A DNA stretch of 64,000 nt from the NCBI RefSeq assembly GCF_963676685.1, contig NC_092345.1, forward strand, positions 11,346,001 to 11,410,000, given 5' to 3'. The translations under genes were made by a program, and so were the position numbers. Source of the DNA: Mytilus edulis. Its lineage: Eukaryota. This document shows positions 2,812 to 63,614 of this stretch, one piece after another. The notes under the pieces are model-generated. The model saw nothing but the letters and a program-made list of their open reading frames with translations. It was not told the origin of the DNA and did not search any database. How positions within the stretch are numbered: the stretch's first letter is position 1; each line of letters begins with the position of its first letter.

Positions 2812-5800
2812 ATGGACATTGGTGTTTTACTTTGCATAACCTTAGGTATGTTTACATTGTATATCTACAAAATAAAAGTATTAAATCTCTAACGTTATTG
2901 TGAAATATAAAAACAATATTCAGTCAAATAGGTAATGATCATGTTAAATGTTTACTAGAATTTACTACGTAATAAAAATATTGAGTCACATAGGTAATTA
3001 TCAAAAAATATTTGATTAATAACAAAGTGATAAGTATTATTAAAATTGTTTTAAAATGAGTTTGTAAGTTTAATAAATTCTATACATCAAATTGATATTG
3101 CGCCATTTTTGGAATTTGCCAAAAGGGGTCATGTAACTAAAAAATAAATTTCAATATGAGCTCTATTCAAAAGCGATCCTCATGAATGAAAATTGTATAA
3201 CCCCCTTTTCCATCCAGGATGGTAAGGTTGTCAAATATCAAATTAAAGTTCATTACGCGTTCATTTCTAATGTTTTTTTGTCGTATAACAAACAAAAGGT
3301 CATACTGTGTATGTTTTAAAATGTCAAACTCCTGTCCCCCCAAATATTAGTTGGATAGGGTTATTAAGTTAAAACAATCTTTCAAAACAAAACTTTCTAG
3401 ATGGTGGTGTTGTCGCATTTACAATTGACTTCTCATTAAGTCTACATTACAAATATCATGCTACCGATCTAACAAATGTAGGGTGGTATATGAAAAAAGA
3501 CGATATGGTATAATTGCAAATGAGACAACTTTCCACACGAGACCAAATGACACAGAAATGTACATCTATAGGTGACCGTACGGTCTCGAACAAAAACCAA
3601 AGTCCATTCCGCATATATAAAAGGCCTTGAAATGATAAATGTAAAACAGTTAAAACGAGAAAACCAACGGCCTAATTTATGTACAAAAATGATTAACTAC
3701 TAGTAACATAAATATGTAACATTGCAACAATAAACCACTTTCGAGTTCATCCGTCACCGGAAAAAACTGGTTAATTAAGCGCGCCGTTGTGACGTCATTT
3801 TCCAGATAGACGGGTCGCCTGTATCCCTGCACTATCAACGTTCATCAAGCGTCTAAGTGATCGTTATTGTGCAGGATAAACTAGAAATAATTTTTGTTTC
3901 GTAGGTGCTCAGTGGTGGATCCAGGCGGAGGGTCCGGGGGTTGGAACCCCCATTTTTTTGGACGATCAATGCATTCAAATGGAAGCATATTGTTGAAACC
4001 ACCCCCTTTTTTTCACTCTGGGTTGAGACCCCCCCTTTTTATAAATGGCTGGATCCGCCACTGGTGCTTAAGCAAAATTCCCTAATGACAGCAGTGCTGA
4101 TTGTCAATTATGAGAATTTAGCTTGCCAAATAAATCGTGCAATATAGTATTATAGTTTTCCAACCATTCGCTCAACATTGGAATGGAACTGACGATGCCC
4201 CTAAACGCACGAATGATGTTCACTAAAGCCAGAGTTTTTGACGGAAATGCATCGAACTCGAAGTTGTCTATTGACATGGAATGATTTAAAGGCTCCTTGA
4301 TTTGGACAGGCATATACAGAATGTGGTGGGGTTAAACTTATTTGAAGGGGCCAGCCCTCCCATAACCTAGGACAGTGGTGAAATAGTTCAACATAAAAAA
4401 TAAACACTATAAAAATAGTAGAAAGAGGCGTTACTCGTCAGATAAATACAAATAGAAAAAATATCCTTCAAAAACACCGAGTGGACGTGACGATTACTTT
4501 GACATCGATCAATAAAAAGACACAAAGTACAAATCTGAGAGTACTCGCAGCTACTGATAGCTAGATGAAAGCCAATACCAAAACTGTTAAAAAAAAACAT
4601 TCATCTAAGACTAAATCAATCAGTCATATTTTTTTTTTCTTATTGTGGTTACTTTATAATTTTCGTACTGTTATATTAATTGTTGCAGGCCTAGTGTGTC
4701 CACCGGACTGGGAACACCATGATGACAACTGTTATTTCTTCAGTAACGATACCCTTCCATGGGATGTCGCACAGGTAAACTTATGAAAATTGAATCACTA
4801 GTATACGGAAACAACAAAATTGTTGTAGGGATTTTATATGGAAGGTTTTAACACAAAAAAAAAAAAGTTTAAGCTTTAAATGTTGATTGCTTGCAAGATA
4901 CCTTGTAAGGGTTCTTAACGTGCAAACAGCGTGGCAATCTCTTTTCACGAGGCATAGGATTCAACGTTCCGATTCTGACCGGACGTTACTGCAAACTTGA
5001 ACATCAAGTACAGCAAAATGGACACCAAAAGGTTAGAAAAGAAATACATACGAGTAAAACAATATTCATTCCATAATGTAATCTATAAAATGTGCATTAA
5101 GACTGTTATCTTTGAAGCTTTTTTTCAAACATTGGTTGAATACAACTACTGGTGGACGTTCCGAATGATACGGAATACACATTTTTTTTACTAGACATTT
5201 CCTGTTAATTGCAAGTAATGAAATGTTAAATTCATTTGGAGCACAAGATATTTGTACCACAGAAAACGATGAATATAGGTTGATTTAGCACATTTTGTTT
5301 TTAATCTTATGTAGAGTAAACGTTCGTCTGACGTACGGAGCTTGTGCATGACTTTAATGTGCCTGTCTATACAACATGTCACAATTCTTTTTGAGAGGAT
5401 AAAATATGAACCATTGTATAAATTTACATTTAAACAAAAGCTTTACTGTTAACGCATTTTTAATTATTTTAATATCTGTATAACCTCACTTAATTCATCT
5501 GATTTGACACGTCTTCAATGAGCTTTCATTGCAGTAATTCAATATGTAGTTATTTTGTAAATAGAATGTTAGTAAGTATTGAATACTTGTTTGCCGATTC
5601 TAATCAAGTCAAGTTTTTTAAGTTATATAAAGGTTATTAACAGAGATAGGGCAAATTTTATTGCTTTCCTTTGCATGTCAAAATCAAGAAGTTTTTAAGA
5701 CATTGATGAATATTAACATTACTTTTCTTTACGGTGATTTGAGCCTTGGCTCACACCAAACAGCAAGCTATAAAGGCCCCATAATGACTGTTATAAAACA

Positions 5801-9945: not shown

Positions 9946-12900
9946 TTAATTTGTTTTGATATTCCCTCTGCAAACCGGACACACAGCTTGACTCTGAAAA
10001 TAAAAATATATATATATTCTTAAAAAGAAGTTCAAAAGTTAATGCCGGAAATTTTAATTCAAAATAATTTAGGGAATTGTAAGTAAAGTAAATGCGAAGT
10101 AATCAAATTGTTAGTTTAGTTAACAAAGGGAATTGTAAGCTAAATTTTCAACAGAGGTAAGTTAAGTCAAGACATGAAACTGGCAGTTCATACAGGGAAT
10201 TGTAAGTTTAGTTAATACAAGGAATTATAATTCAAGTTTTCACAGCGAATATATGAACCTCCTTAGTCAATATACATTATTACATATACAATTGTAACTT
10301 TTGACCAAACATATAATTCTGCATTCTCTAAAATTACAACCAATCTGATGTAGCCGTAGACATCCACTTTTTCTTTTTAACCAACGAGAAGTTCTTAAAC
10401 TACTTGCAAGATAACTCTTTCAAAATATTACCAGGATCAATAATTAAAAAGAAGATAGACGAGAAGACACGAATATCCGCCAAAAAATTACAGATTTGAA
10501 AAGTGAAGATTGAGCAACATGCCCCTGAAGGGTAGGCAGTTCCTATTCTATAAAGAGCACAAGTCGACATGTGTTGCTCATAACATGTTGACCTCCAGTG
10601 AAAATGCATTAATGAGGAAAAAGAAAAAAATTAACAAAAATCCTAGTGACAAGGAAAAAGAGGAAGTCCATAGAAACTGACGGAACGAGTGAAAAACAAC
10701 TGCCGTATATTCGTATAATTGACCTAGTACATATCGTGGCTAATACGTATTAGTTGGGTAAAATATAATGTACACTAGAACTCATATAAATATTTGCTGC
10801 ATGTTGCTACATAAGAATGAAAATAAATCATCTCTTTTAATATATTTAAAACATGTCGCATACTGTTGATTAAGAGTTTAATCTCCTTATATGAAGAAAT
10901 GAAGGTCTGTACATTTTGTTTTAGTGCTGTGATTTGTTTTTTCCTATTTTAAGAAATACTGTTTAAAACTTTTAAGACAAATCAAATTTTTCTCACCTTT
11001 AACCATTTATCTATGCATGTTTTATGATACGAATGGAAACACGGCAACGTTTTTATACTTTCTCCATCTTTGTATTCATTTAGGCATATACTACATGAAT
11101 TTTTATCACTTTTGAAAGTTTTATTTAGTCCTGGTGTAGATTTGAATTTGTGACAAGGTATTCGTCCTATTTGTTCTCCCGTCAGTCCTTTACTACGCAC
11201 ATCGCCGTTTCTTTCTTGTAATTCCCATAAGGCCTGTAAATATCAATTGATTTTTTTTTAATTTAAAACTCCAAAGATTAAGCTTCTTCGTCCCGTATGT
11301 GGTTCAATGGCTTGGACAAATACTCTGCAGATAAACTTAATTCGAAAGTATAAAAAAGCTGGTACTACAGATGCTTTATAAGACTAGTTTTTTCTACCAA
11401 TCCATTTATTTATCATCTTAAATAAAAATAATTGTGTCTTTCTCAAATTAATTTGTTTTTAGTTCATTTTTTAAATTCAGTTGTGTTGTATGTCTGTGCT
11501 GTATGTGTACACTGATTTGGCTACAGGAGCCAAACTATTGTCATATTAACCAATAATGTCTGTTAGGGTTGCGCACCCAATGTTATCAAAATAACTGGAC
11601 TATAAACAACTGTAATACAAGTGGAAGATTTGGCTAGCTAGAAATCTAGGTTTAATCCACTTTTTTCTTCGAAAACACAGGTACCGAATCAGGAATATGA
11701 AAGTTTATTTCCATTTATTCCGTTGGTTGTTAGTCTAACGTTTGTTTTTCAGGTTTTGTGGACTTTCGCCTTTTTGAATTCACATTGGAGTTCTGTATTT
11801 TTTTATACTTTTTTTCTTGTCCAGAAAATTCATTTATCAGGTTCTTACATATGAAAGCAAAGTCCTTAAACAAAAACTGTGTAATTCTATATACAATGTA
11901 CGTGTTAAGATTTTTGCTTAAAAGAGAAACACTACACCAACCTTTGTGTAGGCATGTCATACAGCTACAAAAAAACTAAGCCCTCAGTCAGTGGACAAGC
12001 TGTGCTTCGTTTGACTACTACATCTACCGTATCCAGGGAGACGGTAAATACAACTAGCAGTGTTATAACCATTGTTATACAATAGAACTGTGTAATAATT
12101 ACAAGATACGGACTGTGCATAGAACTTGAACACAAATCATTGGAATATTGGAGAGCTATCTGTGTTGTTGAAATGTATATAAAAGTTATATTTTAAAGAA
12201 TTCTGTGTAAGTCAAAAATATGACAATTGTTATCCATTCGTTTGATGTGTTTGAGCTTTTAATTTTGCCGTTTGATAAGGGACTTTCCGTTTTAAATTAT
12301 CCTCAGAGTTCGGTATTTAAGTGATTTTACTTATCCTACAAATCTGTTGCAAGTTTGTAAATTTACCTCATAATCATCAACATCTATATCATCACTCGTA
12401 AAACGGCTCATGTTATCACGGTTCTGAATGGGATTCCTGTGATAACCACCAAAGTCCATTAACCTTGCTCTTAATCCTCCAGAAGGTAGTAGATTGTGTG
12501 GCTATAATAAAAAAAAATATGTAACTTTAAAATCAATGAATTGTTGCCCTTTTAGTTTATGGCTAGGTATTCGGCTATACATTTTGTCATTTTTGTGGTT
12601 CTATCAGCTCTCCAAGCTCTTTTTTAAGTTATGTCTTTCCGTTAGTATTATCATATTGAGTAACAGCAATACTCAAAATTTTATTTACTTCGCGTTTTGT
12701 CTGTAGACATGGTTTTGAAGTTCCTGCTAAAGAAACTCATCGTAGATACAAGTATACCAGGATTAAAATTTTGTACGTCAGATTCGCGTTTCGTTTACAA
12801 AGTTCGAATCTTAAATAAAGTATCTCGTAAGCAAAATAATTATAAGTCCTTCGAAAGGTTTGTCCATGCTTTCCATTGAATGTACTTGTAGTCAAAATCC

Positions 12901-15900
12901 CAAAAATAAACAATAAAGAATTGTGGTATGATTTTAAAAGAAACAACTATCCACAAAAGACCAAATTTTGAGGATGTAAGCCTTAATAATTATGTCATTT
13001 TATGGCTTTCAGCAATGAGCAAATCGAAAACCCGTATAAAAAACTATAAAAGGTCCTAACATGATAAAAATGTGACACAATTCAAAATAGATTACCTACG
13101 GCTTAATTTATACTTATAAACGGAAAAAATAAATATGAAAGACTTCAACCAAAGACAACCACTGATTTAAAGGCTCCTGACTGCCGTCAGACGCGTTCAT
13201 ATGTTGCGGGATTAAACGTCATTGTGAGCGCTCAACCCTTCCCTAAAATGGGAGAGTAGAATAACACACAGTATCAACTATAGACATCATTTTGAAAAGG
13301 CTTGACTTTATGTTTAAGTAATCTAACAACTTTTTGAACACTTATATGTTTCAATCATTATTTATATAATAATTATTATATAATAAATGAGCTCTGTCTC
13401 CTTGACCTATATATATATATATACATACATTCCTCTGAATTGGGGGTTGCACTATGTCGTGTCGCTGCTCTTGGTTAAAATCCGGCACATTATCTCTATT
13501 TCCTCTTAACCGAAACATGCCTGGCAAAGGCTGTATATCCGGTCTATGACCGTTTTCATCTGCCCTCTGGAATCGGTTTGGATCCGGTCCTCTTCTATTA
13601 TATAGCAGTCTAGGTCTTGGTTGGGGAAGTATGGAGGGCTCAACATCTGTTCTCTGGTTGTTTTCGTCTGTCCGAATATTCCTCTGGAATGGGTTTTCGT
13701 CCGATCCTCTTCTATGGTGTTGCAGTCTAGGTCTTGGTTGGGGCAGTATGGAGGGCTCACCGTCTATTTCTATAAGGGGAAAAAACTTGGTTTTTGAGGG
13801 TGAAATTCATCATAAAAAATGCTTAAACGTTGCATACTTATGATAATATGACCAACACATTATAAATCATGTAGGTCAAAAGTTGGAGGACATATTTTAA
13901 AATTTCAAATAAGCAGCAATATTATACTCACAAAGGCGAGTGGAAATTATGCTTACTCTTCTTACTCTTTAAGAGATCTTGAAAATATCGGTCCTACTAT
14001 AAAAGTTAGAATAAATAATATCATAAAACATTTTCGCTCAATTTCCTTTTTTTTCCAAGTCCCACTCTTTACTCTTTACATACCACTTGTTTTACACACC
14101 ATATACCACATAACACATTTTGTTACCCACTAAATCCCACATCCCAAAAGCGAACCATCCCTTCGTATATTGTTTTCGAATGTTCCCAAAAAAACATTTA
14201 TTTGGCATCAGAATCTGATGTTTGTTTTTTCTTGTTAGTAACTTCGTTAATATAGCTTCATATCAATTTACACTTTCGAGGCGTCTTAGTTTTTTACGGG
14301 GTCAGTAACCAGAGGCGGATTTAGAGGGGGCCAGGGGGCCCGGGTCCCCCCTTTTTGGGAAAAAAATTGGTTGCTTATATAGAAAATCACTGAAGCGTAA
14401 CTGGAGTGGGCCCCCTCTTCGCGCAGTCAGTGCGCGAAAATTTCTAGATCCGCCAGTGGTAACGTTGTCCAATCTTTATTTTTGTGTATTTGGTGTTTTG
14501 TTGGTTTTTTTCTGTTTTGATAATTGCTTTATTTACTCCTTTGCTATCTAATTCGAACTGCATCTATGCTTTCGGTAATTTTGTTTTAACTTCGATGAGT
14601 GGGCGACAATGGCTGTAGATATAATAACTTAATCATATTGTGCCTTTCTGTGACTTTTTCTTGTCTACTTCTACTTGGACAACTTTAGTTTTGGATGTTG
14701 ACAAATCTTTGTAACAATATTCACAAAGTGATGCAATATCTTTTTTCTGCATCATATACCTGTTTCGTCTGAACTGCTGTCTATTAATGTGCCGGGACCG
14801 AACACATGTAGCCCTGGACTGGATGGAAGTGTTCCCATCATAGATGGCCCTCGAACTGATCTGCCGAAGTTCATCTGTTGAACATAAAAATATGCAATTA
14901 TTACCTTCTTTTTTTTAAACTTATTTGAAACATGAAATTGCACCAGTCTTAACCGAATCACATTGAACATGAAGATTGTAAAAAGATTCAAAAGCTGTTC
15001 GGTTTCAATGTTTTTATTTTATAGTGAGTATTTAGTTTAGTCTTGTTTTGATAGGGTTCGCCGTTTTGACATATTTCAGTTCAAGATAAGGCTTCGTTTA
15101 TACATGTTTCCTGTTAGATAGTGTTCGGATTAGACAGATTTTCGTTTTAGACAAGGTTCAGTTTATACATATTAGGATAGTGTTCACTTCCTATAATTCG
15201 TTGTCTAATTAAAGAGGTAAACCTTACTTCTGTCGGACTATGTTTACCTTAGCTGTATTTGGCAAAATTTTTAGGAATATTTGGTCATCAATGCTCTTCA
15301 ACTTCGTACATTATTTGGCATTTTAACATCTTTTTATTCGAGGTCACTGACGAGTCTTTTGTAGACCAAACGCGCGTCTGGCGTAAATATAAAATTTCAA
15401 TCCTGGTATCTATGATGAGTTTTTTTATTGTATGAGACAGCTCTGGTTTTGATTAAATGAAACTCTTAAAAGAAGTATAGACCCGAAGGCGTTCCCGTTG
15501 TAAGTGTTTCAATATAGAAATTGATGAATGCAGTCGAATCTGAATAATTTAAGTGTCTTAATAATATTCTTTGAGAAATGTTTCTCTTGTCAACCTGCAT
15601 TTTTTATTAGCCATACACTCTGCTGTTACAAAGGATTTTAACGACATACTACAAATCACACACTTGTTGTTTTAAAAATCTCTGATCATATGCGTCTAGT
15701 ATCAAAATTATGGACGTCAAGTTGGTTACTTATTCCTTATTCCCTATTCGTAACCTATTCCCTATTCCCTATTTGTTACCTATTCCCTATTCCCTATTCG
15801 TTACCTATTCGTTACCTATTTCCTATTCCCTATTCGTTACCTATTCGTTACCTATTCCCTATTCCCTATTCGTTACCTATTCGTTTCTTATTCCCTATTC

Positions 15901-18900
15901 CCTATCGTTACCTATTCGTTACTTATTCCCTATTCCTTATTCGTTACTTATTCGATTTTTAATATCCTTCTCCCTTTTTAATTGTTTATACTCTTATATC
16001 TGGTTATAGTTCTAAATTTGTTGAGGTAAAATGATCTTTTAGACCTATTTATATGTGTTTGTGCTCAACCGATCCTTTTACTTTATGTTCGATACTCATT
16101 TGTTCCTTATTTGATTTTTATGCGTTCTACCTTTTAACTGCTTTATGTCCGTATGTTTGAAGATGGATCTTGGTTCGAAGCGATGAAATCACCGTGTTAG
16201 CGCTTGTATAAAAAAGAAGATGTGGTATGATTGCCAATGAGACAACACCCCACAATAGACCAAAATGACACAGAAATTATCAACTATAGGTCACTGTACG
16301 GCCTTCAACAATGAGCATAGCCCAAACCGTGTAGTCACCTATAAAAGGTCCAGACATGACAATCTCAAACAATTCAAACAATAAAACTAACGGCCGTTTT
16401 TCATATACAAAAAAATAAACGGAAAACAAATATGTAACACAAAAACAAACGATAACTACTTAATTTCAGGCTCTTGTCTAGGGACAGGTACATACTAACA
16501 TATTGTGGTGGGGTAACATGTTAGCAAGGGTGTACATCGTTTCGGAGCATACTATTACCTTGTTTAATTCGTTCCATCAGTCGCTTATAATTCGCTTATA
16601 ATACATGTATCATACGTTGCACCTTTTAAAACATGATTTTCAATTGTTTTGTTGTCTCTGGTGGTAGATTTGGGTTCTTAGAGGTAATATAACTCTATAA
16701 GCGCATATGTACCCGTTCCAGCGCTCGGATAATACCCTATTAAATATTCGTTACTTATTCGCTTTTAATACGTTTGTTGTACGTTGCACCTTTTAGAAAA
16801 GGATTTTCAATTGTGTTCATATCTCTGTTGGTAATAATGTGTTCTTATAGATGAAATACCCCTATTATCGCGTATGTACCCGTTTCAGCGCCCGACTGAT
16901 ACCCTGTTACTTATTCGTTCCTTATTCGCTTTAAATACGCGTGGTATACGTTGCACCTTGGAATAAATCGATTATCTATTGCTTTCATGTCTCTGGCGGT
17001 AATTATGTGTTCTCTGAAGTGACAAAAAAAACCTATTGGCGCATATGTACTCGTTTCAGCGCAACACTGATACCCTGTTCCTTATTCGTTTCTTATTCGC
17101 CTATTCAACGTGTGTTATGCGTTGCACTTTAAAAAAAAGAAATATGTTTGTGTCTCTGGGGGTAACTGTCGGTTCTTAGAGGTGAAATAACCCTAATCGA
17201 ACATATGTACCCGTTTCAGCGCTCGACTGATACCCTGTTACTTATTCGTTCCTTATTCGCTTTTAAAACGTGTGTTATGCGTTGCACTTTAAGAAAGAAA
17301 TATGTTTGTGTCTCTGGTGGTAACTGTCGGTTATTATAGGTGAAATTACTCTAATAGAATATATGTACCCGTTTCAGCGCCCGACTGATACCCTGTTACT
17401 TATTCGTTCCTTATTCGCTTTAAATACGCGTGGTATACGTTGCACCTTGGAATAAATCGATTATCTATTGCTTTCATGTCTCTGGCGGTAATTATGTGTT
17501 CTCTGAAGTGAAAAAAACCCTATTAGCGCATATGTACTCGTTTCAGCGCAACACTGATACCCTGTTACTTATTTGTTTCTTATTCGCTTATAAAACGTGT
17601 GTTATGCGTTGCACTTTAAAAAAAAAGAAATATGTTTGTGTCTCTGGTGGTAACTGTCGGTTCTTAGAGGTGAAATAACCCTAATCGAACATATTTACCC
17701 GTTTCAGCGCTCGACTGATACCCTGTTACTTATTCGTTCCTTATTCGCTTTAAATACGCGTGCTATGCGTTGCACCTTGAAATAAGAATAAGTAACAAGG
17801 TATTAGCCGAGCGCTGGAACGGGTACATACGCGCTAATAGGGTTATTTCATCTATAAGAACCCGTTATTACCAACAGAGATATGAACACAATTGAAAATC
17901 CTTTTCTAAAAGGTGCAACGTACAACAAACGTATTAAAAGCGAATAAGTAACGAATATTTAACAGGGTATTATCCGAGCGCTGGAACGGGTACATATGCG
18001 CTTATAGAGTTATATCACCTCTAAGAACCAAAATCTACCACCAGAGACAACAAAACAATTGAAAATCATGTTTTAAAAGGTGCAACGTATGATACACGTA
18101 TTATAAGCGAATTATAAGCGACTGATGGAACAAATTAAACAAGGTAATAGCATGCTCCGAAACGATGTACACCCTGCTAACATGTTTAACCCCACCACAA
18201 TATGTTAGTATGTGCCTGTCCCTAGACAAGAGCCTGAAATTAAGTAGTTATCGTTTGTTTTTGTGTTACATATTTGTTTTCCGTTTATTTTTTTGTATAT
18301 GAAATACGGCCGTTAGTTTTGTTGTTTGAATTGTTTGGGATTGTCATGTCTGGACCTTTTATAGGTGACTACACGGTTTGGGCTATGCTCATTGTTGAAG
18401 GCCGTACAGTGACCTATAGTTGATAATTTCTGTGTCATTTTGATCTATTGTGGGGTGTTGTCTCATTGGCAATCATACCACATCTTCTTTTTTATACAAG
18501 CGCTAACACGGTGATTTCATCGCTTCGAACCAAGATCCATCTTCAAACATACGGACATAAAGCAGTTAAAAGGTAGAACGTATAAAAATCAAATAAGGAA
18601 CAAATGAGTATCGAACATAAAGTAAAAGGATCGGTTGAGCACAAACACGTATAAATAGGTCATAAAAAGATCATTTTACCTCAACAAATTTAGAACTATT
18701 ACCAGATATAAGAGTATAAACAATTAAAAAGGGGAAAGGATATTAAAAATCGAATAAGTAACGAATGAGGAATAGGGAATAAGTAACGAATAGGTAACGA
18801 TAGGGAATAGGGAATAAGTAACGAATAGGTAACGAATAGGGAATAGGGAATAGGTAACGAATAGGGAATATGGAATAGGTAACGAATAGGGAATATGGAA

Positions 18901-20788
18901 TAGGTAACGAATAGGTAACGAATAGAGAATAGGGAATAGGTAACGAATAGGTAACGAATAGGGAATAGGGAATAGGTAACGAATAGGTTACGAATAGGGA
19001 ATAGGGAATAGGTAACGAATAGGTAACGAATAGGGAATAGGGAATAGGTAACGAATAGGGAATAGGGAATAAGTAACCAACTTGACGTCAATATCAAAAT
19101 TAATGTAATTTCATATCTGAAAGACAGTATATAAAAGTCAAGTTCCCATGATAGGTTGGTTTAGAGGTTCTCACTTATCATGATTTTAGATATAAGAATA
19201 AAGTAATGAATAATTAACATACAGAAGTGATCATTTCATGTTGGCGAACCCAAAAGGGTACACATAATTATTTTTTTTTAAATAATTGTTTACACTTATA
19301 AAAATCAAAGATCCAATGCAGAGAAATGGCAATATCCAATAAAAATAATGAAAAACGATAAATGGAATTACCAAAAACATTAAACAGTTCAACACACACA
19401 CCAGTAAATACTGAACAAAAGTATCAGGCTTATATTTGGTAGGCCAGGCGTGCGTTTTGTCTACTCACAAGACTCATCAGTGACGCTCAGATAAAAATAG
19501 TTAGAAAGCCAAACAAGTATAAAGTTGAAGAGCATTTAGAACCCAAAACTCCAAAAAAAGTTGTGCCTAATACGGCTAAGGTGATCTATACCTGGGATAA
19601 GAAAATCCTCAGTATTTCGAATAATTTATAATTTTGTTCACAGTAAATTATAAAAATGACCATATAATTGATATTCATGTCAACACCAAAGTACTGACTA
19701 CTAGGCTCGTAATACACCCGGGAACAAAACGTCCACTAGCATTGACATCGACCCAGTGGTAAATAGATATCAAAGGTACCAGGCTTTTAATTTGATACAT
19801 TAGACGTGTAAAAGACTTACAAGCAAAACAAACAATTACAGACACAAAGCATGGTAAAGATAGCATGACTTGGAACAAACACAAAATGTTGCAGGGTTAA
19901 ACAAGTTTCCCCTGTGTCCCTTCTCCGTCCCGTTTTGCTTATTTGAACCGTATGCCATAAAAGTAATATATTGATTAAATAAAACGTGCCCAGACCAGCT
20001 ACCACTAAACTGACCATCAGTAATAACAGGCTGCATGAACTAGTGAGAGGCGAATAACCATTTAAAAATCGTCAGACCAGTGAAAGAAATACCACTTCAA
20101 CTAAATTGGTAAATAAACCCTGTAGCTATTGCTGTTGAACAATGTGAGAACCCTCCCAACTTTCACGTGTATACATTTTAATGTTGAAGTCCTATTTACG
20201 GCATTAAAATAGAATTTAGGGCGAGAAATAACAAATGCAAGGATATTTTTTCGGACAAATAGCTGTTCTAATAATAACATTTCTCATTTATTTTCAAGAT
20301 CAGTTGTATATAAGATGTCAGAGTGTTATATATATCTCGCATACTTTACAACTTCTGTAATACAATTAAGTAATAAGTGCTCAATTTACTAGTAATTGTT
20401 TTACCTGATTACTTGGCCTAAGTCCATGCATGCTGTGTAATGCCTCATTTAGCTGCGGAACTCGTCCATCCTCATTTTGCCTTTGCCATCCATTCCCATC
20501 ACCTCCTGCTAATCTTTGGGCAACCTCTCTATCGTGGAGCTCTTGCTCGAGATGTTCTTGTTCTTGCAACTGCAATGCAATAACTGCACTGTGGTCTTCG
20601 TCAATATCTGGAGGTAACGGTGTCTGGACTTCTCTTTTTTGAAGTCTTAATGCCAAAGCAGCATCAGGATTTCTCCTGACACTTTCGGTTAAAGGTCTCT
20701 GAGCAGCTTCGTATGCAGAAGCAGCAATTTCATTCTGAAGAACCCGTTTTTCAAAATCATCATCGACATGAAACATGCGAAAAGCCAT
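9946..20788 (-). CDS. RING-H2 E3 ubiquitin ligase (RNF38/44/Arkadia/BIG BROTHER-like C-terminus) with N-terminal MIU-like motifs, ~419 aa
   Basis: Coding exons 20788-20405, 14874-14760, 13769-13429, 12501-12367, 11233-10997, 9993-9946 are GT-AG and in phase. C-terminus: DIDVDDYEALWELQERNGDVRSKGL...CSICLNEYKDGESIKTLPCFHSYHKTCIDKWLKSQAVCPVCR (C3H2C3). A probable non-coding first exon ends at 21411 (GTAAG donor). Confidence 0.85.
14310..14458. mobile_element. MITE, CAGAGGCGGAT TIR, 5-bp TSD GTAAC (hAT5-like)
   Basis: gtaac|CAGAGGCGGATTTAG...CTAGATCCGCCAGTG|gtaac. Its internal sequence is shared with 47673-47791. Confidence 0.75.
15225..15425 (+). repeat. Dispersed repeat family B (…TCAATGCTCTTCAACTTCGTAC…CCTGGTATCTATGATGAGTTT)
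   Basis: Related copies at ~6690-6900 (+), and reverse copies at ~700-960, 1330-1460, 12735-12830 and 19440-19820. Confidence 0.65.
15711..19091. mobile_element. Non-autonomous foldback (FB/TU/Mutator-like) element with ~1.2-1.3 kb inverted arms and 11-bp TSD
   Basis: Termini TGGACGTCAAGTTGGTTACTTATTCC and GGAATAAGTAACCAACTTGACGTCAA. Direct repeat TATCAAAATTA at 15700-15710 and 19092-19102. Arms ~15711-16920 and ~17787-19091 are near-identical reverse complements. The spacer consists of ~163-bp tandem units. Confidence 0.9.
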
Positions 20789-24628: not shown

Positions 24629-25515
24629 CAAGTACACACCCGTGATATCGCGGGTCCGTGACTGACTTAAAGTATATAACTATGCCTAACCTTATTTTAG
24701 TAATTGGTATTGTCATCTGATAAAGTAATGTCGATTATAAGATACACAGTTTTTTTTTTTGCTTTCAAATCTTTCTGTTTGAACCCGTCGACCTGGAACT
24801 TATCAATTATTGGTAATATTAATTATTTGGAAAACAAAAGGTCCTGGCTATCCAGGAATGGAGTATTTTTTAATCAACAGCATTGTCCTCCTATAGATTA
24901 AAAATTACACCACTCCAGACCCTTTTGTTTTCCACATAACTAATATTGCCAATAATTAACAAGTTCCGGGTCGAATCCGATACCGATACCAATAGTATAT
25001 TCACCTGTTAGCTATTACCTTATCTGTACGTTCCGCATTTGACAGGCGCACCACCAAACGGTGTATTTAGGATTTTGCTATATACACGGGTCATAATCAA
25101 AGGGCTGACACTACTAAATTCTATCATTGTCAAATTGTTCCCTATTGTAGTTTTATTCAGCAATCAGCAAGACTTTCTAAGATAACTAATATAGGACAAA
25201 TTGAATGCTGTTGACCCGTGTATATAGCAAAATCCTAAATACACCGTTTGTTGGTGCGCCTGTCAAATGCGGAACGTACAGATAAGGTAATAGCTAACAG
25301 GTGAATATACTATTGGTATCGGTATCGGATTCGACCCGGAACTTGTTAATTTTTGGCAATATTAATTATGTGGAAAACAAAAGGGTCTGGAGTGGTGTAA
25401 TTTTTAATCTACACCATTGTCCTATATTAGTTCTATATAGAGTTGAATTCTTTGATTTGTCGTTTTTACCCGATGACGGCTGACAAAATGGACCTCGTAA
25501 TTTTAGTATTATAGA
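24629..25515 (-). mobile_element. Non-autonomous Helitron with internal inverted duplication
   Basis: Minus strand starts a|TCTATAATACTAAAA and ends with hairpin CCCGCGATATCACGGG followed by GTACTTG|t (a CTAG variant). It sits between A and T with no TSD. Confidence 0.65.
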
Positions 25516-43308: not shown

Positions 43309-46300
43309 CTAAGTTGTACCAGAGGGTCTGAAAAATAAAAAAAAAGTCTTATTAATAATTAAAATCAAAATCTAATTGAACAATCATATTTCATAATTTG
43401 GGTTATGAATAAATCCGATATTCATGTCAATGGTTGTGTGAGGTTAGGGTTGTTGACAACATTTTTTGTAGATAATGTCTGCCTATAATGGTTGTGTGAG
43501 GTTAGGGCTGTTGACAACATTTTTTGTAGAAAATGTCTGCCTATAATGGTTGTGTGAGGTTAGGGCTGTTGACAACATTGTTTGTAGATAATGTCTGCCT
43601 ATAATGGTTGTGTGAGGTTAGGGCTGTTGACAACATTGTTTGTAGATAATGTCTGCCTATAATGGTTGTGTGAGGTTAGGGCTGTTGACAACATTTTTTG
43701 TAGATAATGTCTGCCTATAATGGTTGTGTGAGGTTAGGGCTGTTGACAACATTGTTTGTAGATAATGTCTGCCTATAATGGTTGTGTGAGGTTAGGGCTG
43801 TTGACAACATTGTTTGTAGATAATGTCTGCCTATAATGGTTGTGTGAGGTTAGGGCTGTTGACAACATTGTTTGTAGATAATGTCTGCCTATAATGCTTG
43901 TGTGAGGTTAGGGCTGTTGACAACATTGTTTGTAGATAATGTCTGCCTATAATGGTTGTGTGAGGTTAGGGCTGTTGACAACATTGTTTGTAGATAATGT
44001 CTGCCTATAATGGTTGTGTGAGGTTAGGGCTGTTGACAACATTTTTTGTAGATAATGTCTGCCTATAATGGTTGTGTGAGGGGCTGTTGACAACATTTTT
44101 TGTAGATAATGTCTGCCTATAATGGTTGTGTGAGGGGCTGTTGACAACATTTTTTGTAGATAATATCTGCCTATAATGGTTGTGTGAGGGGCTGTTGACA
44201 ACATTTTTTGTAGATAATGTCTGCCTATAATGGTTGTGTGAGGGGCTGTTGACAACATTTTTTGTAGATAATATCTGCCTATAATGGTTGTGTGAGGGGC
44301 TGTTAACATTTTTTGTAGATAATGTCTGCCTATAATGGTTGTGTGAGGGCTGTTGACAACATTTTTTGTAGATAATGTCTGCCTATAATGGTTGTGTGAG
44401 GGGCTGTTGACAACATTTTTTGTAGATAATGTCTGCCTATAATGGTCGTGTGAGGGGCTGTTGACAACATTTTTTGTAGATAATGTCTGCCTATAATGGT
44501 TGTGTGAGGGCTGTTGACAACATTTTTTGTAGATAATGTCTGCCTATAATGGTTGTGTGAGGGGCTGTTGACAACATTTTTTGTAGATAATGTCTGCCTA
44601 TAATGGTTGTGTGAGGTTAGGGCTGTTGACAACATTTTTTGTAGATAATGTCTGCCTATAATGGTTGTGTGAGGTTAGGGATGTTGACAACATTTTTTGT
44701 AGATAATGTCTGCCTATAATGGTTGTGTGAGGTTAGGGCTGTTGACAACATTTTTTGTAGATAATGTCTGCCTATAATGGTTGTGTGAGGTTAGGGCTGT
44801 TGACAACATTTTTTGTAGATAATGTCTGCCTATAATGGTTGTGTGAGGTTAGGGCTGTTGACAACATTGTTTGTAGATAATGTCTGCCTATAATGGTTGT
44901 GTGAGGTTAGGGCTGTTGACAACATTTTTTGTAGATAATGTCTGCCTATAATGGTTGTGTGAGGTTAGGGCTGTTGACAACATTTTTTGTAGATAATGTC
45001 TGCCTATAAAGGTTGTGTGAGGTTAGGGCTGTTGACAACATTTTTTGTAGATAATGTCTGCCTATAATGGTTGTGTGAGGTTAGGGCTGTTGACAACATT
45101 TTTTGTAGATAATGTCTGCCTATAATGGTTGTGTGAGGTTAGGGCTGTTGACAACATTTTTTGTAGATAATATCTGCCTATAATGGTTGTGTGAGGTTAG
45201 GGCTGTTGACAACATTGTTTGTAGATAATGTCTGCCTATAATGGTTGTGTGAGGTTAGGGCTGTTGACAACATTGTTTGTAGATAATGTCTGCCTATAAT
45301 GGTTGTGTGAGGTTAGGGCTGTTGACAACATTTTTTGTAGATAATGTCTGCCTATAATGGTTGTGTGAGGTTAGGGCTGTTGACAACATTGTTTGTAGAT
45401 AATATCTGCCTATAATGGTTGTGTGAGGTTAGGGCTGTTGACAACATTTTTTGTAGATAATGTCTGCCTATAATGGTTGTGTGAGGTTAGGGCTGTTGAC
45501 AACATTTTTTGTAGATAATGTCTGCCTATAATGGTTGTGTGAGGTTAGGGCTGTTGACAACATTTTTTGTAGATAATGTCTGCCTATAATGGTTGTGTGA
45601 GGTTAGGGCTGTTGACAACATTGTTTGTAGATAATGTCTGCCTATAATGGTTGTGTGAGGTTAGGGCTGTTGACAACATTGTTTGTAGATAATGTCTGCC
45701 TATAATGGTTGTGTGAGGTTAGGGCTGTTGACAACATTGTTTGTAGATAATGTCTGCCTATAATGGTTGTGTGAGGTTAGGGCTGTTGACAACATTGTTT
45801 GTAGATAATGTCTGCCTATAATGGTTGTGTGAGGTTAGGGCTGTTGACAACATTGTTTGTAGATAATGTCTGCCTATAATGGTTGTGTGAGGTTAGGGCT
45901 GTTGACAACATTGTTTGTAGATAATATCTGCCTATAATGGTTGTGTGAGGTTAGGGCTGTTGACAACATTTTTTGTAGATAATGTCTGCCTATAATGGTT
46001 GTGTGAGGTTAGGGCTGTTGACAACATTTTTTGTAGATAATGTCTGCCTATAATGGTTGTGTGAGGTTAGGGCTGTTGACAACATTGTTTGTAGATAATA
46101 TCTGCCTATAATGGTTGTGTGAGGTTAGGGCTGTTGACAACATTGTTTGTAGATAATATCTGCCTATAATGGTTGTGTGAGGTTAGGGCTGTTGACAACA
46201 TTGTTTGTAGATAATATCTGCCTATAATGGTTGTGTGAGGTTAGGGCTGTTGACAACATTGTTTGTAGATAATGTCTGCCTATAATCACCATAGATAAGT

Positions 46301-49300
46301 AATTCACTCTCCTTTATTTGTAAAATTGATAAAAACTAAACATATGTGCTTGATCTGCAATTTTGTTGTCACATGTTTTCGTGCTTGATGTTTGTTATCC
46401 ACCGTGTGTAATACAAATTGGTGAAAAAGCAACAATTGAGCAATTTTATTTCATCATGAAATTCAATACCCCTCTCTAAGTACAGCCCTATTTATTACAC
46501 TCTTTCCACTGATCAGCTGTTTATACAGGCCTATTAAGATTTTTCCTTACACTAACTACCATGAAAATGAACAAATTTGTTACAAAACAAACACAAAACA
46601 AGCATAATTTATTGAAGTTGTAAAATTGCAATAAAATAGAAAAGCAAGTCTTTCATATACATGATTAAATTGCAATTAATTAAACAATTTAAGTTTTTAC
46701 CCAAAACAAAACTGGTATCAGACTAAACATTACACTTACTTTGCCCATTCAACATTAAGAATAAGATGATCATATCCAAATCCAGACACACCAGCAATGG
46801 CCCGAGCTGCATCCTCCCTTCTGTGGAAGTTGATAAATGCAAACCCCTGTAAAACAGAACAATTAGCATTTTAGGACAGTTATAATATCTAATCTAGAGG
46901 TGTACTTTTCTCATTGATTTTTCAGTTTACACCTCAGTTTATTCATGTTCATCCACATACAATTTCAGTAAATACAACCATCAAATATATATAAAGATAA
47001 AAACAATAGAAATTAAAATTATGAACAATATATATAATATGTCAGAAAAAACATTTGTGTTTTTAGAGTCACTCAATTAATTAACCCTTTTCTAGGCTGT
47101 AACCATAACAATTTTATTTCTAGCAAAAAGACCAAAAATAATTTACATAAAATCAAATATTTTATGCGACCTTTAATGAATATAATTGTTAACTTCATTT
47201 GTCAAATCAAAGTGCTTGTAAGCACTGAATGGTAAAGATTGTTTTAATTTATCAGTGGGAAGTAAAATTAAATATTGCAATGTCTAAAGCATTGGTTGTA
47301 GTTGATTCAACTACAATTATTGACAATGGAAGATAACTCCTATTTTCTAAAGATGACTTTAACAATGTCAGACATCATGGATATTTTTAGAACAGATATT
47401 AGATTAAGTCCAGTCAATCTAGCATAAATTTGACCCCAACCTGAAAGTAATTGCAACAGAAGATTTTTAAGTTTTAATCTTTAGCATTATACCCCAAATA
47501 TACACAGAAAAAAGTCCCATAAAATCTTACTTGAGGAAGACTAAAACAATCACCATTTAATATTCCTATGGAGATTTGCGTTGAAAAGGGAGATAACTCT
47601 TGCAAAAAAGGCAGAAATATCAATAAAAATTGATACAAAATTATAATTTAACCGCTTCCATTCATCAGAATGCATAGGCGGATCCAGGAGGGCCCCCCTT
47701 TCGTGGGAAAAATTAGGTTGATTATATAGGGAATCATTGAAGCATGACTGGAGCGGGCCCCCCCTTAGGAAAAGTTCTGGATCCGCCACTAAAATGTATT
47801 GATTATTGATTTTTTAGTGGTATTTAGAGTATAACAAACAATTCTAAAGGTATTTTCACATATTTTTTATCAAGCTATTATCTAGATTTCGTAATTCATT
47901 AGTTGACCATTTATTGAATTTTTCAACATGTCAAGGTAAAGAATCTCAAATTTGATAAAAATAATTAAGCATGTATTCTTCTTTTTGTGGTTTAAAGTTT
48001 CTTTAGAAAAGTAAGATGCTGAAAGAATATAATACACAGATATAAACAATACCAAATTTTCATATTATTTTTTCAAAATGGTCACAAAGCTTCAAATTTG
48101 CAATTTCTTTAATGAAAAATGCACCAAAAAAATATAACTACCCATAACACATCGATTTTGTACATTTCATGAGCAGAAGATTATATAATTTAGTTAAATA
48201 CAAACTTATAACTCCATCAAAGTATCGTACTTTCAAAAAAATCAACCAAAAACTGATCAAGAAAGGACTCATTTTTGCGGAGTTATCTCCCCTTCCAAAG
48301 TTTATTTCCATAGGAAATTAAAAATACTGATTTTGAGTTTTCCTCACCTTAGATTTTATGGGACTTTTTTCTGTGTAAATAAAGGACATAATGCTATAGA
48401 TTAGAACTAAAACATTTTCTGTTGCAATTAGTTTGAGGTTAAATCTTAGTTTGACTGGACTAATTCCTGCACCTTGCAAAAGTTATGCAATTTTCTTGTC
48501 AGGTGTACCATTGTTTTGTGATAATGCTTAAGACTAACAACATGAGCAGTATTTAGCCTTACCTTAGACTGCCCTGTATTTTTGTCTTTTGCCAAGTAAA
48601 TTCTCTGTATAGGACCAAATGGTCTAAACAATTCCTGTAAATCAGACTCTCTGGTATCCTCTGATAAATTAGTAACTCTAATAGTAGCAGACTCATCTGA
48701 AATATTTACAAATCAATAGAAGGAGGCAAACACAAAAAAAACAACATCTAAAATAAATATTATAATATCATGAGTGGCCAAATCATTTCAAACAATGTGT
48801 TAAATTTTACAAAAAGACATCTTCACAATAAGAATAAGATACAGCATATCCCTCAAGCAATTGTATAATTATTTGTTTTTTCCCTTGCAGTAAACTCTTG
48901 TTGTCTCAAACTAAATAGGACTTTAATTTCAATTCAACATTTTTCTGTCAATTGTAAACTGATACACTAAAGACCTGTAGAATAAAATATGAAATTTGAG
49001 AAAGGAAATGGGAAATGTGTCAAAGCGACAACAACCCGACCATAGAACAGACAACAGCCGAAGGCCACCAATGGGTCTTCAATGTAGCTAGAAACTCCCG
49101 CATCCGGAGGCATCTTTCAGCTGGCACCTAAAAAAATATTGTCTGCAATGGTACAGTCATAATCACTGACAACCCTGATTATTTTACCTCTTTTAGACTG
49201 CATTGTCTCCCCTTTTCCTTTAGATGGTCCATCTCTAAGACTGGGTGGGACATACTTTCCACCTGCTTTATTAGCCTGAGCTGGTGCCCCAGGAATAGCT

Positions 49301-52300
49301 GGTGTTGGTACTGCTCCTGCTTCTCCTGCTGGTTTATCTCCATCTTGTAGTTTCTCCTGGATTGGACCTAAAGTGTCCTTGTATGGACATTTAGTAGTCC
49401 AATGGTCTCCTTTACATATACGACAAGACACCATTTTCGTGGCCTTCAGTTTAGCCAGTGGGTCTTCTTCTTTTTCTTCTTTAACCTGTAAAATTGTAAA
49501 AGTTTAAATCTAAATCCAAACAAAATATTTGACCATAGGACATCATGCCTTAACTGCTACTATCTCATTTCCATTTTCAATCTACACTTCAGACTTGGGG
49601 TCAATTACATTGGAATGTAATTAATTAAATTACACATTACATTGCAAAAATGATCAATTACACTAATTACACATTACAGTTTTTGAAATGTAATTAATTA
49701 AATTACAATTACTTTACTAAAGTAATTAATTAAATTACACATTACATTTCATCATGATATTTTTTAATAATCTTTTACATGTATATATAATGCATGTGTA
49801 AAATATTCACGTAAGCATTCATTCATTCATATCTTTAATTCCTCATAAATGAGATTCAATGAACATACAATTAATAAATATAAGCAAACGTTACAACATA
49901 ATTACACACAAATAATAAGTATAAGAGCAAAGTATAAGGTAAATACACAAAAGATGATATATAAATAATCTATAAAAGCAATGTTTAAAGTATAACTGCA
50001 GTGACACATCATGTATTGACACATCGTGTATTGACACATCTAATAACACTGTCTAAGAGATCGACTATATTCTGCTACACACTGAATAACATGTGCATGA
50101 CACAGCTTGAGAAATTGAACCGATTCATCTATGCTTGAAAAAATTGTCAGTGGTTTTCGACCGAGTAACATTTGAAACAGGATTTCGTCGTCATACATGT
50201 TTAATTCACAGTAAAGCTGCACTGGAAAATTGTCACTTAAAATGTCCCACCAGACTTCTCGCTGTGCATTAGTACTTGGACAATTGCAACAAGCGTGTAC
50301 ATAAACATCTTTAAAATTCCTTGAACATATATCACATATATCACTTGTTGTATTTGGTATTTCAGTTAGTAATTTAGTGATTAAAAAAGAATTTTTAATC
50401 TCATTAAAAGAATTTGAGTGTTTCCAAAATTCTGTAATTGTCACTGACGTATGAATATTCCTGAAACGTGTGAAGCTGTCATCTGAAATAACACGGTTTA
50501 ACCAATTGTTTAACTGTATACTATCGACTGCGCTATAAACAATAGACTTCCAGCAATTGTAAATAATCTTTCGACAGAAGCTAATGTGCTAAATATTGCT
50601 TGATCAGAACATGGAAGTTTTATGATTAGAAGATCATCATATTGATAGGAGAGGGAATTTGTTCCTATTTACAAAAGGCATTTTAACTTCGCAGAAATGA
50701 ACTCATTTGAATTAAACATAATATGAATAAAGAAATTATAAATGAATTAGAATTTTATTTTTATTTTTTAAATATTAAAAAGTGTGCTTGTCACAATATT
50801 GAAATAAATTTTTAGTACAAACAATGTATATATATATAATGTCTAAATATAAGCAATATTTTGCTAATTAGATAAAATATATGTAATAGTGGCATTGCCT
50901 CTGGACATTTTAATCTGATTAATTGCTGTTTGTTTTTACAGCTGTTAATTTTTATTTCTATAATCCTTTTGTGTATACTAATTTGACAAAATGATTGTAT
51001 GCAGTGATTCAATTCTAAAATTGTCTAAGAAAGATGTTTTACAGTGACACATTTTTGTGTTTTGTTTAACAAGCTGATTAATTAATTATCAATCTATTTA
51101 GTTAAAAGATCTTTCTTAAAAACTGAACAACACTAATATATGATTCTCACATTTTGTAAATTATAAGACTATTAAAAAAATCTAAAGTTCAAATAAATGA
51201 TATAAAAACTTCAGAATAAATTACAGACTTCATATATTAAAAAAGCATGTGATATCAATATTTGAAAAATACATGTACATATAATTTTACAATTTGTATA
51301 ATTAAACACAAATCCTTATCTTTAACACCATAAAAGTACATGTAATTGAAATGTAATTCAAAAGTAATTCAGCATTACATGCTTTTTTCAATGTAATTAA
51401 TTAAATTACCATTACATGTAATTAAAAAAATGCTCAATTACACATTACATGCAATTAATTACATGGAAAAGTGTAATGCATTACACTTAATTACCATTAC
51501 ATTTTTAATTACCCCATCCCTGCTACACTTATACAAAATGATCATACACATGTATTCACTAATCAATCATTTTAAAATACAAATAACTTACTGAATTGAA
51601 TTTTCATTTTAGGATTGCTATGCTTGTAATACAACTGTCACTCAGTATTGTATGCAATCTAAAGGTCCACTCCAACATAATATTTTTTTTGTTTTAATAT
51701 ATTAGTTGGACATCAGGCTTATAAAAGCTTAATTTTAACATGAATTCATACCTGACAGGAAACTATACTGATAAAATTTAGAAGAGTTATTCATTTATTT
51801 ATAACTTTTGGGCAAACAACATCAACAATTTCGACACTTACAAATCAAAACTTATTATTCAAAGATGAAAAGCAAACATATCATACTGATTTCACTGGAA
51901 GTAAGCTTCATCATGTATCATCAAGACAAAAAGTTTGTAAAGCCAACAATAGGACAAAAATCTTTCAGAGCATACCAAACTTAGAAAGGCCATCAAAAGA
52001 ACAGCCAAAACTGACATATTATGTCAAGTTCACCTGAGGTAGTCAAAAGAACAGCCAAAACTGACATATGTCAAGTTCACCTGAGGTAGTCAAAAGAACA
52101 GCCAAAACTGACATATGTCAAGTTCACCTGAGGTAGTCAAAAGAACAGCCAAAACTGACATATGTCAAGTTGACCTGAGGTAGTTTCTGCAAATTATGAT
52201 CCATGCACAAGTATCATTTAAAGAATATATATTTGCATTTTATACAGCTTTTCTGATTTTTGTTTTTATTAGTTTGTTTCAATTTTGATCTGTAAATTTT

Positions 52301-59405: not shown

Positions 59406-60593
59406 GAATGTTTTCTTTATAACAGTTGAGTTCATCATACAATGTCCCATCCAACAACTTGTTAGTTTTTCGAATTGATATTCTCCCGAGCGACTATACT
59501 TTAAATATATTGATAGAATAAACATGATTACGGTCCATGCAGTTTTGTTTAAACACTTATGTTTGAGTGATAAAAATCAACGACCAGGGTCTAACAGGGT
59601 TGTTTACAGAATAGAGAATAATGAGCAAAAAATACAGAATCAAGGGGGAAATATTTAGGCAGGATTTTCTTGCTGTGTTGAAGACCATGCAAGTCTCTTA
59701 GACACATTCCTCGTTTCCATTCTCAATTTTATTGTAAATATACAAGAGAAAATAGAAGGAAACAAATATCCTTCAATCTATTGTTTTCGGCCAAAGCTCT
59801 ATTTTTCAGCATAACACTCAAGAATTGATAAAAATCATCATTCGTTATTACGTTTTATCCATGTAATGACATATATGTTCGTGTATCACTAAACACAAAA
59901 TGCATCGAAACAAGGTCATAATATGGTAGCTCAGTTTTCGATGAAACAAAAAAAAAAAACTCATTTAGTTATGTTTGCATACACAAACAAGCTGTAGAAT
60001 ATTATTAATTCATTTTTTCTATAAAAATTGATTGATTTCAAATTGGTCTGAAATTTAAAATTTACATTTTATGAATTGAATCCGTGAACCCGGTTTATTT
60101 TGGCTACTTTACACCACTGATTACTATATTATGAGTTGTTTGATTGACTGTCTACTTGTGACAATCACTTTATATTTTCTCTTTGCAGAATTTGTTAATA
60201 TTGTTTTTATTTTATTTATTATTTATATTTATCATATACTTAGCATTAATATGATAGCTTTTGCATATGTGTAACGAACGGAAGTACACAAGCCATAATT
60301 TCCCACCCAGGCTGATAACCCATATCAGCCCGGTCTGATAACCCATATCAGGGGCGTCTCGTGCAAAAACCCATAACAGTGCTTCTCGTGCAAGTTACTT
60401 CCGGTGTTTCCGGTATCGGTTGTTTATTTTTTCCATTGTGACGTCAGATATTGATGACGACGTCAAAATTTACGGGAACAGTTTTGTGGGGATAGTTTAG
60501 TACTTACTAACAAATACCATTGGCAATTATGAATCATTTTATAGTACAACAAACATGGAGTAATAATGATAATGAAACTCTTCCAACTACTCA

Positions 60594-63553: not shown

Positions 63554-63614
63554 CTTGGTTACTTGCTACTACTACGTCAAAATTTAAGAATGACAACTTC
63601 AGCTACAGGTGCTT

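What the first reader, a model, noticed from the sequence alone, without database searches (positions are those of the whole stretch)
15711..19091. 3.4-kb foldback element able to form a ~1.2-kb dsRNA stem inside the RING-gene pre-mRNA
Seen: highly similar ~1.2-1.3 kb inverted arms, a perfect 11-bp TSD (TATCAAAATTA), modular internal repeats and no transposase ORF. Known: Drosophila FB and sea-urchin TU elements have long modular TIRs, and 9-11 bp TSDs typify Mutator/foldback elements. Inferred: a young, probably undescribed mussel foldback family. Host transcription would make long dsRNA (an ADAR or endo-siRNA substrate) and a rearrangement-prone cruciform, and it may be polymorphic for presence/absence.
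Basis: partly seen in the sequence, partly recalled or inferred. Interest (0 to 1): 0.7.

Follow-up and report, generated by a model that had tools for sequence, protein, structure and literature searches.

The report
Mussel foldback transposon with mirrored arms
This is a real, gene-less jumping element built as one long palindrome, present in some mussels and absent in others at this spot and likely sitting in an intron of a ubiquitin-ligase gene; it belongs to a family of a few hundred copies whose two arms share private mutations and so likely copy from each other, a known kind of transposon that we did not find described for mussels.

Summary
Confirmed, with corrections. The element spans 15710-19092 (3,383 bp) and its target-site duplication is 9 bp (ATCAAAATT), not 11: 22 of 38 other paired copies show an exact 9-bp duplication and none fits 11. 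Its arms are 97% identical. Three public data sets hold the empty site, so it is a real, polymorphic insertion. It likely lies in intron 1 of a RING-H2 gene. The genome holds at least 485 exact family ends, in copies of 0.4-23 kb. No transposase was found in any copy read. The 'spacer' is just more of the ~160-bp repeat. Mutations seen in only two arms mostly fall in the two arms of one element (16 of 24; 12 of 12), pointing to arm-to-arm copying, as proposed for Galileo. A second family with IS3EU-like ends and 6-bp duplications carries the same 160-bp arrays. It works like Tetris, Tm1 or Rehavkus; Mutator membership is likely but unproven. A 1.2-kb RNA stem is predicted, not shown; a published survey finds no endo-siRNAs in molluscs. 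New member of a known kind.

The parts
15701..15709 (+). left copy of the 9-bp target-site duplication ATCAAAATT
   Evidence: family tally; single copy at the empty site
15710..19092 (.). whole foldback element, 3,383 bp, no coding capacity
15710..15954 (+). left terminus ATGGACGTCAAGTTGG plus array of 7- and 11-bp repeats (motif GTTAC[C/T]TATTC); likely transposase-binding region (inferred)
15960..16205 (+). U1, family-specific non-repetitive arm segment; younger subfamilies carry extra inserts near its start, in both arms
16207..16515 (+). N, a copy of an abundant dispersed repeat nested in the left arm and mirrored in the right arm
   Evidence: related copies at window 3493-3735 and 12912-13182 and in unrelated loci
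16522..16582 (+). U2, short arm segment
16586..17785 (+). left array of about 7 units of the ~160-bp repeat (R160), most units bearing the terminal motif; 16917-17785 is the part not matched by the right arm
17786..18112 (-). right array, 2 R160 units; shortened relative to the sister copy C7_50.7, first unit likely a chimera of centre and outer units
18120..18745 (-). right-arm U2, N (18189-18493) and U1 (18498-18745)
18746..19092 (-). right terminal short-repeat array and terminus (ATTG variant)
19093..19101 (+). right copy of the 9-bp duplication
20405..20788 (-). likely first coding exon of the host gene; GT donor 1.3 kb from the element
   Evidence: no Pfam match; link to exon 2 inferred
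14760..14874 (-). host coding exon 2; AG acceptor about 0.84 kb from the element
9946..13769 (-). host coding exons 3-6 (13429-13769, 12367-12501, 10997-11233, 9946-9993); RING-H2 finger; predicted protein of 419 aa
   Evidence: zf-RING_2 E 2e-12 for exon 10997-11233

Best explanation
This is a gene-less foldback DNA transposon with a 9-bp target duplication that is present in some individuals and absent in others, likely moved by a Mutator-type cut-and-paste transposase supplied from elsewhere, and whose two arms are likely kept alike by copying from one arm to the other. Shown: ends, 9-bp duplication, copy number, module order, empty sites, absence of a gene in this copy, and the excess of mutations and nested insertions shared by the two arms of one element. 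Inferred: (1) a transposase binds the terminal motif and the repeated GTTAC[C/T]TATTC motif, cuts at both ends and inserts with a 9-base stagger, by analogy with Muta1; (2) breaks in one arm are repaired from the other, which mirrors point changes and nested repeats into both arms; (3) the 160-bp arrays grow and shrink by unequal exchange, giving copies of 0.4-23 kb, this one a contracted copy; (4) transcription of the host intron would give a stem of about 1.2 kb that ADAR could edit, probably as a side effect without a selected function.
For: Terminal 16-mers: 241 vs 6 control and 244 vs 0. Exact 9-bp duplication in 22 of 38 paired copies and 13 of 14 in the youngest subfamily. Empty site in 3 of 4 runs laid (X5, X6, X10; X11 gave no cover). 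A contig of run X4 runs 25 nt into the element end, below the tool's 31-letter bar. Variants carried by exactly two arms fall in one element in 16 of 24 cases among 34 arms, chance share 3%, p = 3e-19 (the divergent copy C2_71.3 was dropped; with it, 47 of 63), and 12 of 12 among 28 arms of the youngest subfamily. The tree of 36 arms shows no left-arm versus right-arm split. Subfamily-specific inserts stand in both arms. MULE duplications are 8-11 bp (PMC6446971, passages). Subterminal repeats raise Muta1 binding and excision (PMC5499845, passages).
Against: No transposase was found: none in 39 paired copies (38 plus this one), 40 unpaired ends read 10 kb inward, 18 further stretches or 87 interior frames scanned with Pfam (2 hits, reverse transcriptase and C2H2 finger). 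None of 40 Mutator-type transposase loci (10 kb each) or 30 ZSWIM-type loci carried the family's motifs. The ends begin ATGG, whereas the three Mutator elements found here with clear 9-bp duplications begin GGG. The own arm was the nearest neighbour in only 7 of 18 elements, so homogenisation is partial. 16 of 38 pairs lack an exact 9-bp duplication. No RNA was examined.
Confidence: 0.75

Rival explanations
1. A foldback family moved by a transposase of another superfamily that also makes 9-bp duplications; long inverted arms evolve repeatedly and say little about the enzyme.
For: No partner found. [quoted passage not shown] Family B in this genome has the same arrays with 6-bp duplications.
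Against: A constant 9-bp duplication fits MULE and Rehavkus (PMC6446971) and not Galileo (7-8 bp, PMC4168063) or IS3EU (6 bp, PMC10045372).
Confidence: 0.15
2. The sharing of variants between arms is an artefact of assembly or polishing, or reflects unsampled subfamilies, rather than ongoing copying in place.
For: Only 18 plus 14 elements were compared out of some 240; near-identical arms can attract mis-mapped reads; no raw reads were examined for this.
Against: Arms still differ by 0.2-3.4% in the non-tandem core (17 of 18 elements) and by many single-arm variants (81 singletons), so they were not collapsed. Inserts of hundreds of bases stand in both arms of many copies. A variant fixed in an unsampled donor still needed one arm-to-arm copying event.
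Confidence: 0.1
3. The palindrome is an assembly artefact or a one-off inverted duplication rather than a transposon.
For: One copy (C2_76.4) has flanks that are inverted copies of each other, so such duplications occur.
Against: Duplicated target, empty-site alleles, hundreds of ends and a shared central junction.
Confidence: 0.01
4. The insertion has been kept because its RNA stem regulates the host RING gene (editing, splicing or nuclear retention).
For: It makes up about 61% of a predicted 5.5-kb intron, and 1181 base pairs are predicted between the arms. ADAR genes are reported in molluscs (PMC6651903, search listing only).
Against: The site is empty in the three other data sets with cover; both splice sites lie 0.8-1.3 kb away; no RNA evidence; no evidence of endo-siRNAs in molluscs (PMC12479628).
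Confidence: 0.05

Closest known systems
Tetris of Drosophila virilis (PMC4079207, passages)
   Same: Non-autonomous foldback; long TIRs with an outer flank domain and an inner array of tandem repeats that share a motif with the outer domain; 8-10-bp duplications; no autonomous copy found; assigned to Mutator by duplication length.
   Different: Tetris has three complete copies and ~220-bp units. This family has hundreds of ends, ~160-bp units, copies up to 23 kb, and in many copies no middle domain at all. Sequence relationship not tested.
Rehavkus-like elements of Tribolium (PMC12581902, passages; PMC6446971)
   Same: 9-bp duplication; inverted termini with variable numbers of tandem repeats, sometimes over 11 kb; act as satellite carriers.
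   Different: Rehavkus was reported only from insects and annelids and has a transposase with a PHD finger; none was found here.
Tm1 of root-knot nematodes (PMC3169594, passages)
   Same: Composite foldback-type TIRs, mostly 9-bp duplications, nested insertions.
   Different: Tm1 has a copy with a Phantom-type MULE transposase; no such copy was found here.
Galileo of Drosophila (PMC3573991; PMC4168063; passages)
   Same: TIRs with expanding tandem repeats; secondary insertions in one TIR that become part of both; repair of one TIR from the other proposed.
   Different: P superfamily with 7-8-bp duplications. The passages read propose the exchange from structure; here it is counted from shared point variants.
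Pearl/MgE/HINE elements of bivalves (PMC7492417, passages)
   Same: Non-autonomous bivalve elements that disperse ~160-bp tandem repeats.
   Different: Those carry one array in a fixed orientation and are Helentron-related; here two arrays face each other inside terminal inverted arms with a 9-bp duplication. Whether R160 matches a published Mytilus satellite could not be tested.

Membership tests
Foldback elements (structural class) | long terminal inverted arms made largely of tandem subrepeats | tested here: met
Foldback elements (structural class) | dispersed copies of very variable length with target-site duplications | tested here: met
   0.36-23 kb; duplications
Mutator (MULE) superfamily | 8-11-bp target-site duplication (PMC6446971) | tested here: met
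   exact 9 bp in 22 of 38 and 13 of 14
Mutator (MULE) superfamily | long TIRs with a terminal motif and subterminal repeats | tested here: met
Mutator (MULE) superfamily | MULE-type DDE transposase in an autonomous copy with the same ends | tested here: inconclusive
   none found; most copies on C6-C14 and most interiors of the youngest subfamily were not read
Rehavkus | 9-bp duplication and tandem repeats inside the inverted termini | tested here: met
Rehavkus | Rehavkus transposase with PHD finger | not tested
   no profile or sequence for it was at hand; only PF10551, PF20700 and PF21056 were searched
Galileo / P superfamily | 7-8-bp duplication | tested here: not met
   1 of 38 pairs exact at 7, 0 at 8; 1 of 14 at 8
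IS3EU/GingerRoot (window element) | TA..TA ends and 6-bp duplication (PMC10045372) | tested here: not met
   ends AT..AT, 9-bp duplication
IS3EU/GingerRoot (family B, elsewhere in the genome) | TA..TA ends and 6-bp duplication | tested here: met
   5 pairs of the TTATG subtype: 3 exact, one 5 of 6, one 4 of 6; the 6 pairs of the other subtype have the motif inside longer arms and no duplication there
IS3EU/GingerRoot (family B, elsewhere in the genome) | IS3EU transposase | not tested
   no search made; the two copies read whole are 1.9 and 2.4 kb and mostly repeats
Helentron/HINE (Pearl-like) satellite carriers | single array in a fixed orientation between dissimilar flanks | tested here: not met
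   two arrays head to head inside identical inverted arms

The most novel reading that the evidence does not exclude
The palindrome acts as a factory for new transposons: anything that lands in one arm is mirrored into the other, so a foreign transposon end becomes an inward-facing pair and can carry the satellite core off under a different transposase. Family B, with IS3EU-like ends and 6-bp duplications around the same head-to-head 160-bp arrays (units 86-97% identical to the best family units), would be such a hand-over of one satellite between two transposon superfamilies.
Probability: 0.35. Interest if true: 0.6.

Novelty: new member of a known kind. Interest (0 to 1): 0.36.

Why it matters
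The element itself is a routine kind of selfish DNA. The family is useful in three ways. It is young and polymorphic, so filled and empty alleles of a gene can be compared for the effect of a 1.2-kb intronic RNA stem. Its hundreds of long palindromes allow arm-to-arm conversion in a transposon to be counted instead of assumed. And one 160-bp satellite (6302 exact hits of a 16-mer) appears to ride on two unrelated kinds of transposon ends, which bears on how dispersed satellites of bivalves spread.

Tried and rejected
Search for the partner transposase led nowhere. ORF scans and tblastn with Mutator-type ORFs from this genome were negative on 18 paired copies including this one, 21 more (3 of the 24 fetched lacked one end and were dropped), 40 unpaired ends and 18 further stretches. 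Pfam on 87 interior frames of 70 aa or more gave only a reverse transcriptase and a C2H2 finger; that finger lies beside a separate dispersed repeat nested in copy C1_60.2. Motif and blastn searches around 40 PF20700/PF10551 loci and 30 PF21056 loci were negative. A looser 12-mer gave 478 hits against 88 control; most of the 20 extra hits read belong to an unrelated repeat with the 12-mer inside it, and none was a family end. The 11-bp reading was rejected by the family tally; the empty site alone cannot tell 9 from 11. The first read-laying run was swamped by high-copy repeats in the flank; run X11 gave no cover, which proves nothing. A fold of 17100-18500 alone showed the arrays can also pair in another register, but the whole-element fold preferred the outer arms. 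Earlier findings of the scan gave nothing on this family. Nine literature searches listed no description of a mussel foldback family; Repbase, Dfam, subscription papers on Mytilus satellites (for example the MgE paper cited in PMC7492417) and the repeat libraries in supplements of PMC10294476 were not seen and may hold it.
Full report
Observation. The window is G000:C2:11346001-11410000 of a 1.37-Gb genome. It is likely a Mytilus mussel: it holds a linker-histone-domain gene at 62933-63565 that I recall as the sperm protein PL-II, and earlier notes of the scan call this genome a mussel. The inverted arms are real: 15710-16916 and 17786-19092 align with 1172 matches, 34 mismatches and 102 gap columns. 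The gaps fall mainly in the terminal 7/11-bp repeats. The only long frames inside are readings of those repeats.

Ends and duplication. Other copies show the terminus to be ATGGACGTCAAGTTGG, so the element runs 15710-19092 and is flanked by ATCAAAATT twice. Of 38 other paired copies, 22 have an exact 9-bp duplication (21, plus C1_31.3, mis-anchored there and 9 of 9); none supports the 11-bp reading. The other 16 have imperfect or no duplications; one is exact at 7 bp. In a younger subfamily with the terminus ATGGGCGTCAAGTTGG, 13 of 14 pairs are exact at 9 bp and one at 8. The duplicated sequences show no obvious consensus.

Family. The two terminal 16-mers occur 241 times (control 6) and 244 times (control 0), so there are at least 485 exact ends, roughly 240 elements if mostly paired (inference). 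Paired copies read range from 355 bp to 23 kb. Each arm has the order: terminal short repeats, U1, a nested dispersed repeat N, U2, then an array of ~160-bp units pointing inward. Most 160-bp units in this copy contain the motif GTTAC[C/T]TATT[C/T] of the terminal repeats. In this copy the arrays meet head to head at 17785/17786; the same junction occurs in 3 of the other 41 copies compared. Against its sister C7_50.7 (8.2 kb), the window copy has lost most array units, and its first right-hand unit starts like the centre unit and ends like the outer unit, as expected from unequal exchange within the array (inference). A 16-mer of the unit has 6302 exact hits, control 0.

Polymorphism. Contigs of three public runs from three studies (X5, X6, X10; two species labels) cross the site and continue straight into the right flank with a single ATCAAAATT; a fourth run, X11, gave no cover. 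One contig of run X4, a third species label, matches the left flank without a mismatch and runs 25 nt into the element end; this is below the tool's 31-letter bar and only suggests a carrier. The insertion is therefore real and not fixed.

Host gene. Six exons on the minus strand join by GT-AG introns into one open frame of 419 aa with a RING finger (zf-RING_2, E 2e-12). The element lies between exon 20405-20788 and exon 14760-14874 and makes up about 61% of that 5.5-kb intron. The join is inferred from sequence; the first exon has no Pfam match and no RNA was laid. The minus-strand transcript of the element is predicted to form 1181 pairs between the arms. ADAR genes are reported in molluscs (PMC6651903, search listing only).

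Arm-to-arm copying. In the 600-bp non-tandem core of 18 elements with both arms complete, the own arm was the nearest neighbour in 7 of 18, and the tree shows no split into left and right arms. Variants carried by exactly two arms fell in the same element in 47 of 63 cases; without the divergent copy C2_71.3, 16 of 24 against a chance share of 3% (p = 3e-19). In the youngest subfamily the count was 12 of 12 among 28 arms, beside 81 single-arm variants. Subfamily-specific inserts of several hundred bases or more stand in both arms, as does N. The simplest reading is repair or conversion of one arm from the other. This has precedent: Galileo copies have secondary insertions that became part of both TIRs (PMC4168063, passages), and repair from the opposite TIR was proposed (PMC3573991, passages). 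Polishing artefacts and incomplete sampling are not excluded.

Transposase. None was found in 39 paired copies, 40 unpaired ends, 18 further stretches or 87 interior frames, and none of 70 Mutator-type loci carried the family's motifs. The long frames inside copies look like nested retroelements (labels partly by eye; RVT_1). Most copies on C6-C14 and most interiors of the youngest subfamily were not read, so an autonomous copy may exist. The Mutator assignment rests on the 9-bp duplication and long TIRs (PMC6446971, passages), the same grounds used for Tetris (PMC4079207, passages). Binding to the repeated motif is inferred from Muta1 (PMC5499845, passages).

A second family with the same core. 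Some head-to-head 160-bp arrays have other ends, TATGGAACGCCGTAGCTGCC (112 hits, control 0), followed by 21-bp repeats. Of 30 such ends read, 12 belong to a subtype whose five pairs show 6-bp duplications (3 exact, one 5 of 6, one 4 of 6), and 10 of these 12 have the array within 1.5 kb inward; none of the other 18 does. TA..TA ends with 6-bp duplications define IS3EU/GingerRoot (PMC10045372, passages). Four units tested are 86-97% identical to their best match in the 9-bp family. Because the unit carries the 9-bp family's terminal motif and the family B end also exists without the array, transfer from the 9-bp family to family B is the likelier direction (inference). The route is unknown: mirroring of an inserted end, or capture during gap repair.

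Comparison and verdict. It works like Tetris, Tm1 (PMC3169594, passages) and the Rehavkus-like satellite carriers of Tribolium (PMC12581902, passages). It is a member of the foldback class; Mutator membership is probable but the defining enzyme is untested. Nine searches of the open library listed no description for mussels; passages of PMC7492417 and PMC10294476 mention other bivalve elements only. Repeat databases and supplements were not seen. New member of a known kind; interest 0.36.

Noticed in passing
G000 small contigs C72, C477, C520, C740, C1273, C2000 and others; C12:58.93-58.95 Mb: An uninterrupted Mutator-like (PF20700) frame of about 670 aa recurs every ~4.4 kb in tandem on many small contigs, and a 666-aa one every ~4.8 kb on C12: tandem arrays of intact transposase-like genes.
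   Followed up: no
L259-L262, L271-L300 (for example G000:C1:26294568-26297009): Family B: IS3EU-like ends with 6-bp duplications around the same 160-bp arrays; a second subtype has the same end embedded in both arms of longer inverted repeats.
   Followed up: partly
L036, G000:C2:76362035-76363702: A copy whose two flanks are inverted copies of each other, with no target duplication.
   Followed up: no
L034-L035, G000:C2:71337094-71352259: A copy with two right ends 5.7 kb apart, each followed by the same flank: a tandem duplication of end plus flank, or an assembly duplication.
   Followed up: no
L192 (G000:C5:12.67 Mb) and L204 (G000:C13:29.81 Mb): Another foldback-like family with ~1.1-kb inverted arms, 9-bp duplications, GGG ends and a PF10551 transposase frame between the arms; unrelated in sequence to the family studied.
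   Followed up: no
window 15206-15544: A contig of run X4 skips this flank segment, which holds a high-copy repeat present in the window: a second presence/absence variant in the same intron.
   Followed up: no
window 62933-63565 (-) and 49117-49503 (-): Linker-histone-domain, protamine-like gene (PL-II label recalled) and an eIF3g exon.
   Followed up: partly
window 43429-46286: Fifty copies of a 58-bp unit at 97% match.
   Followed up: no
window 60576-62018 (+): 480-aa frame with a reverse transcriptase domain.
   Followed up: no
window 24948-25465: A further inverted repeat of about 200-bp arms seen by eye in the sequence.
   Followed up: no
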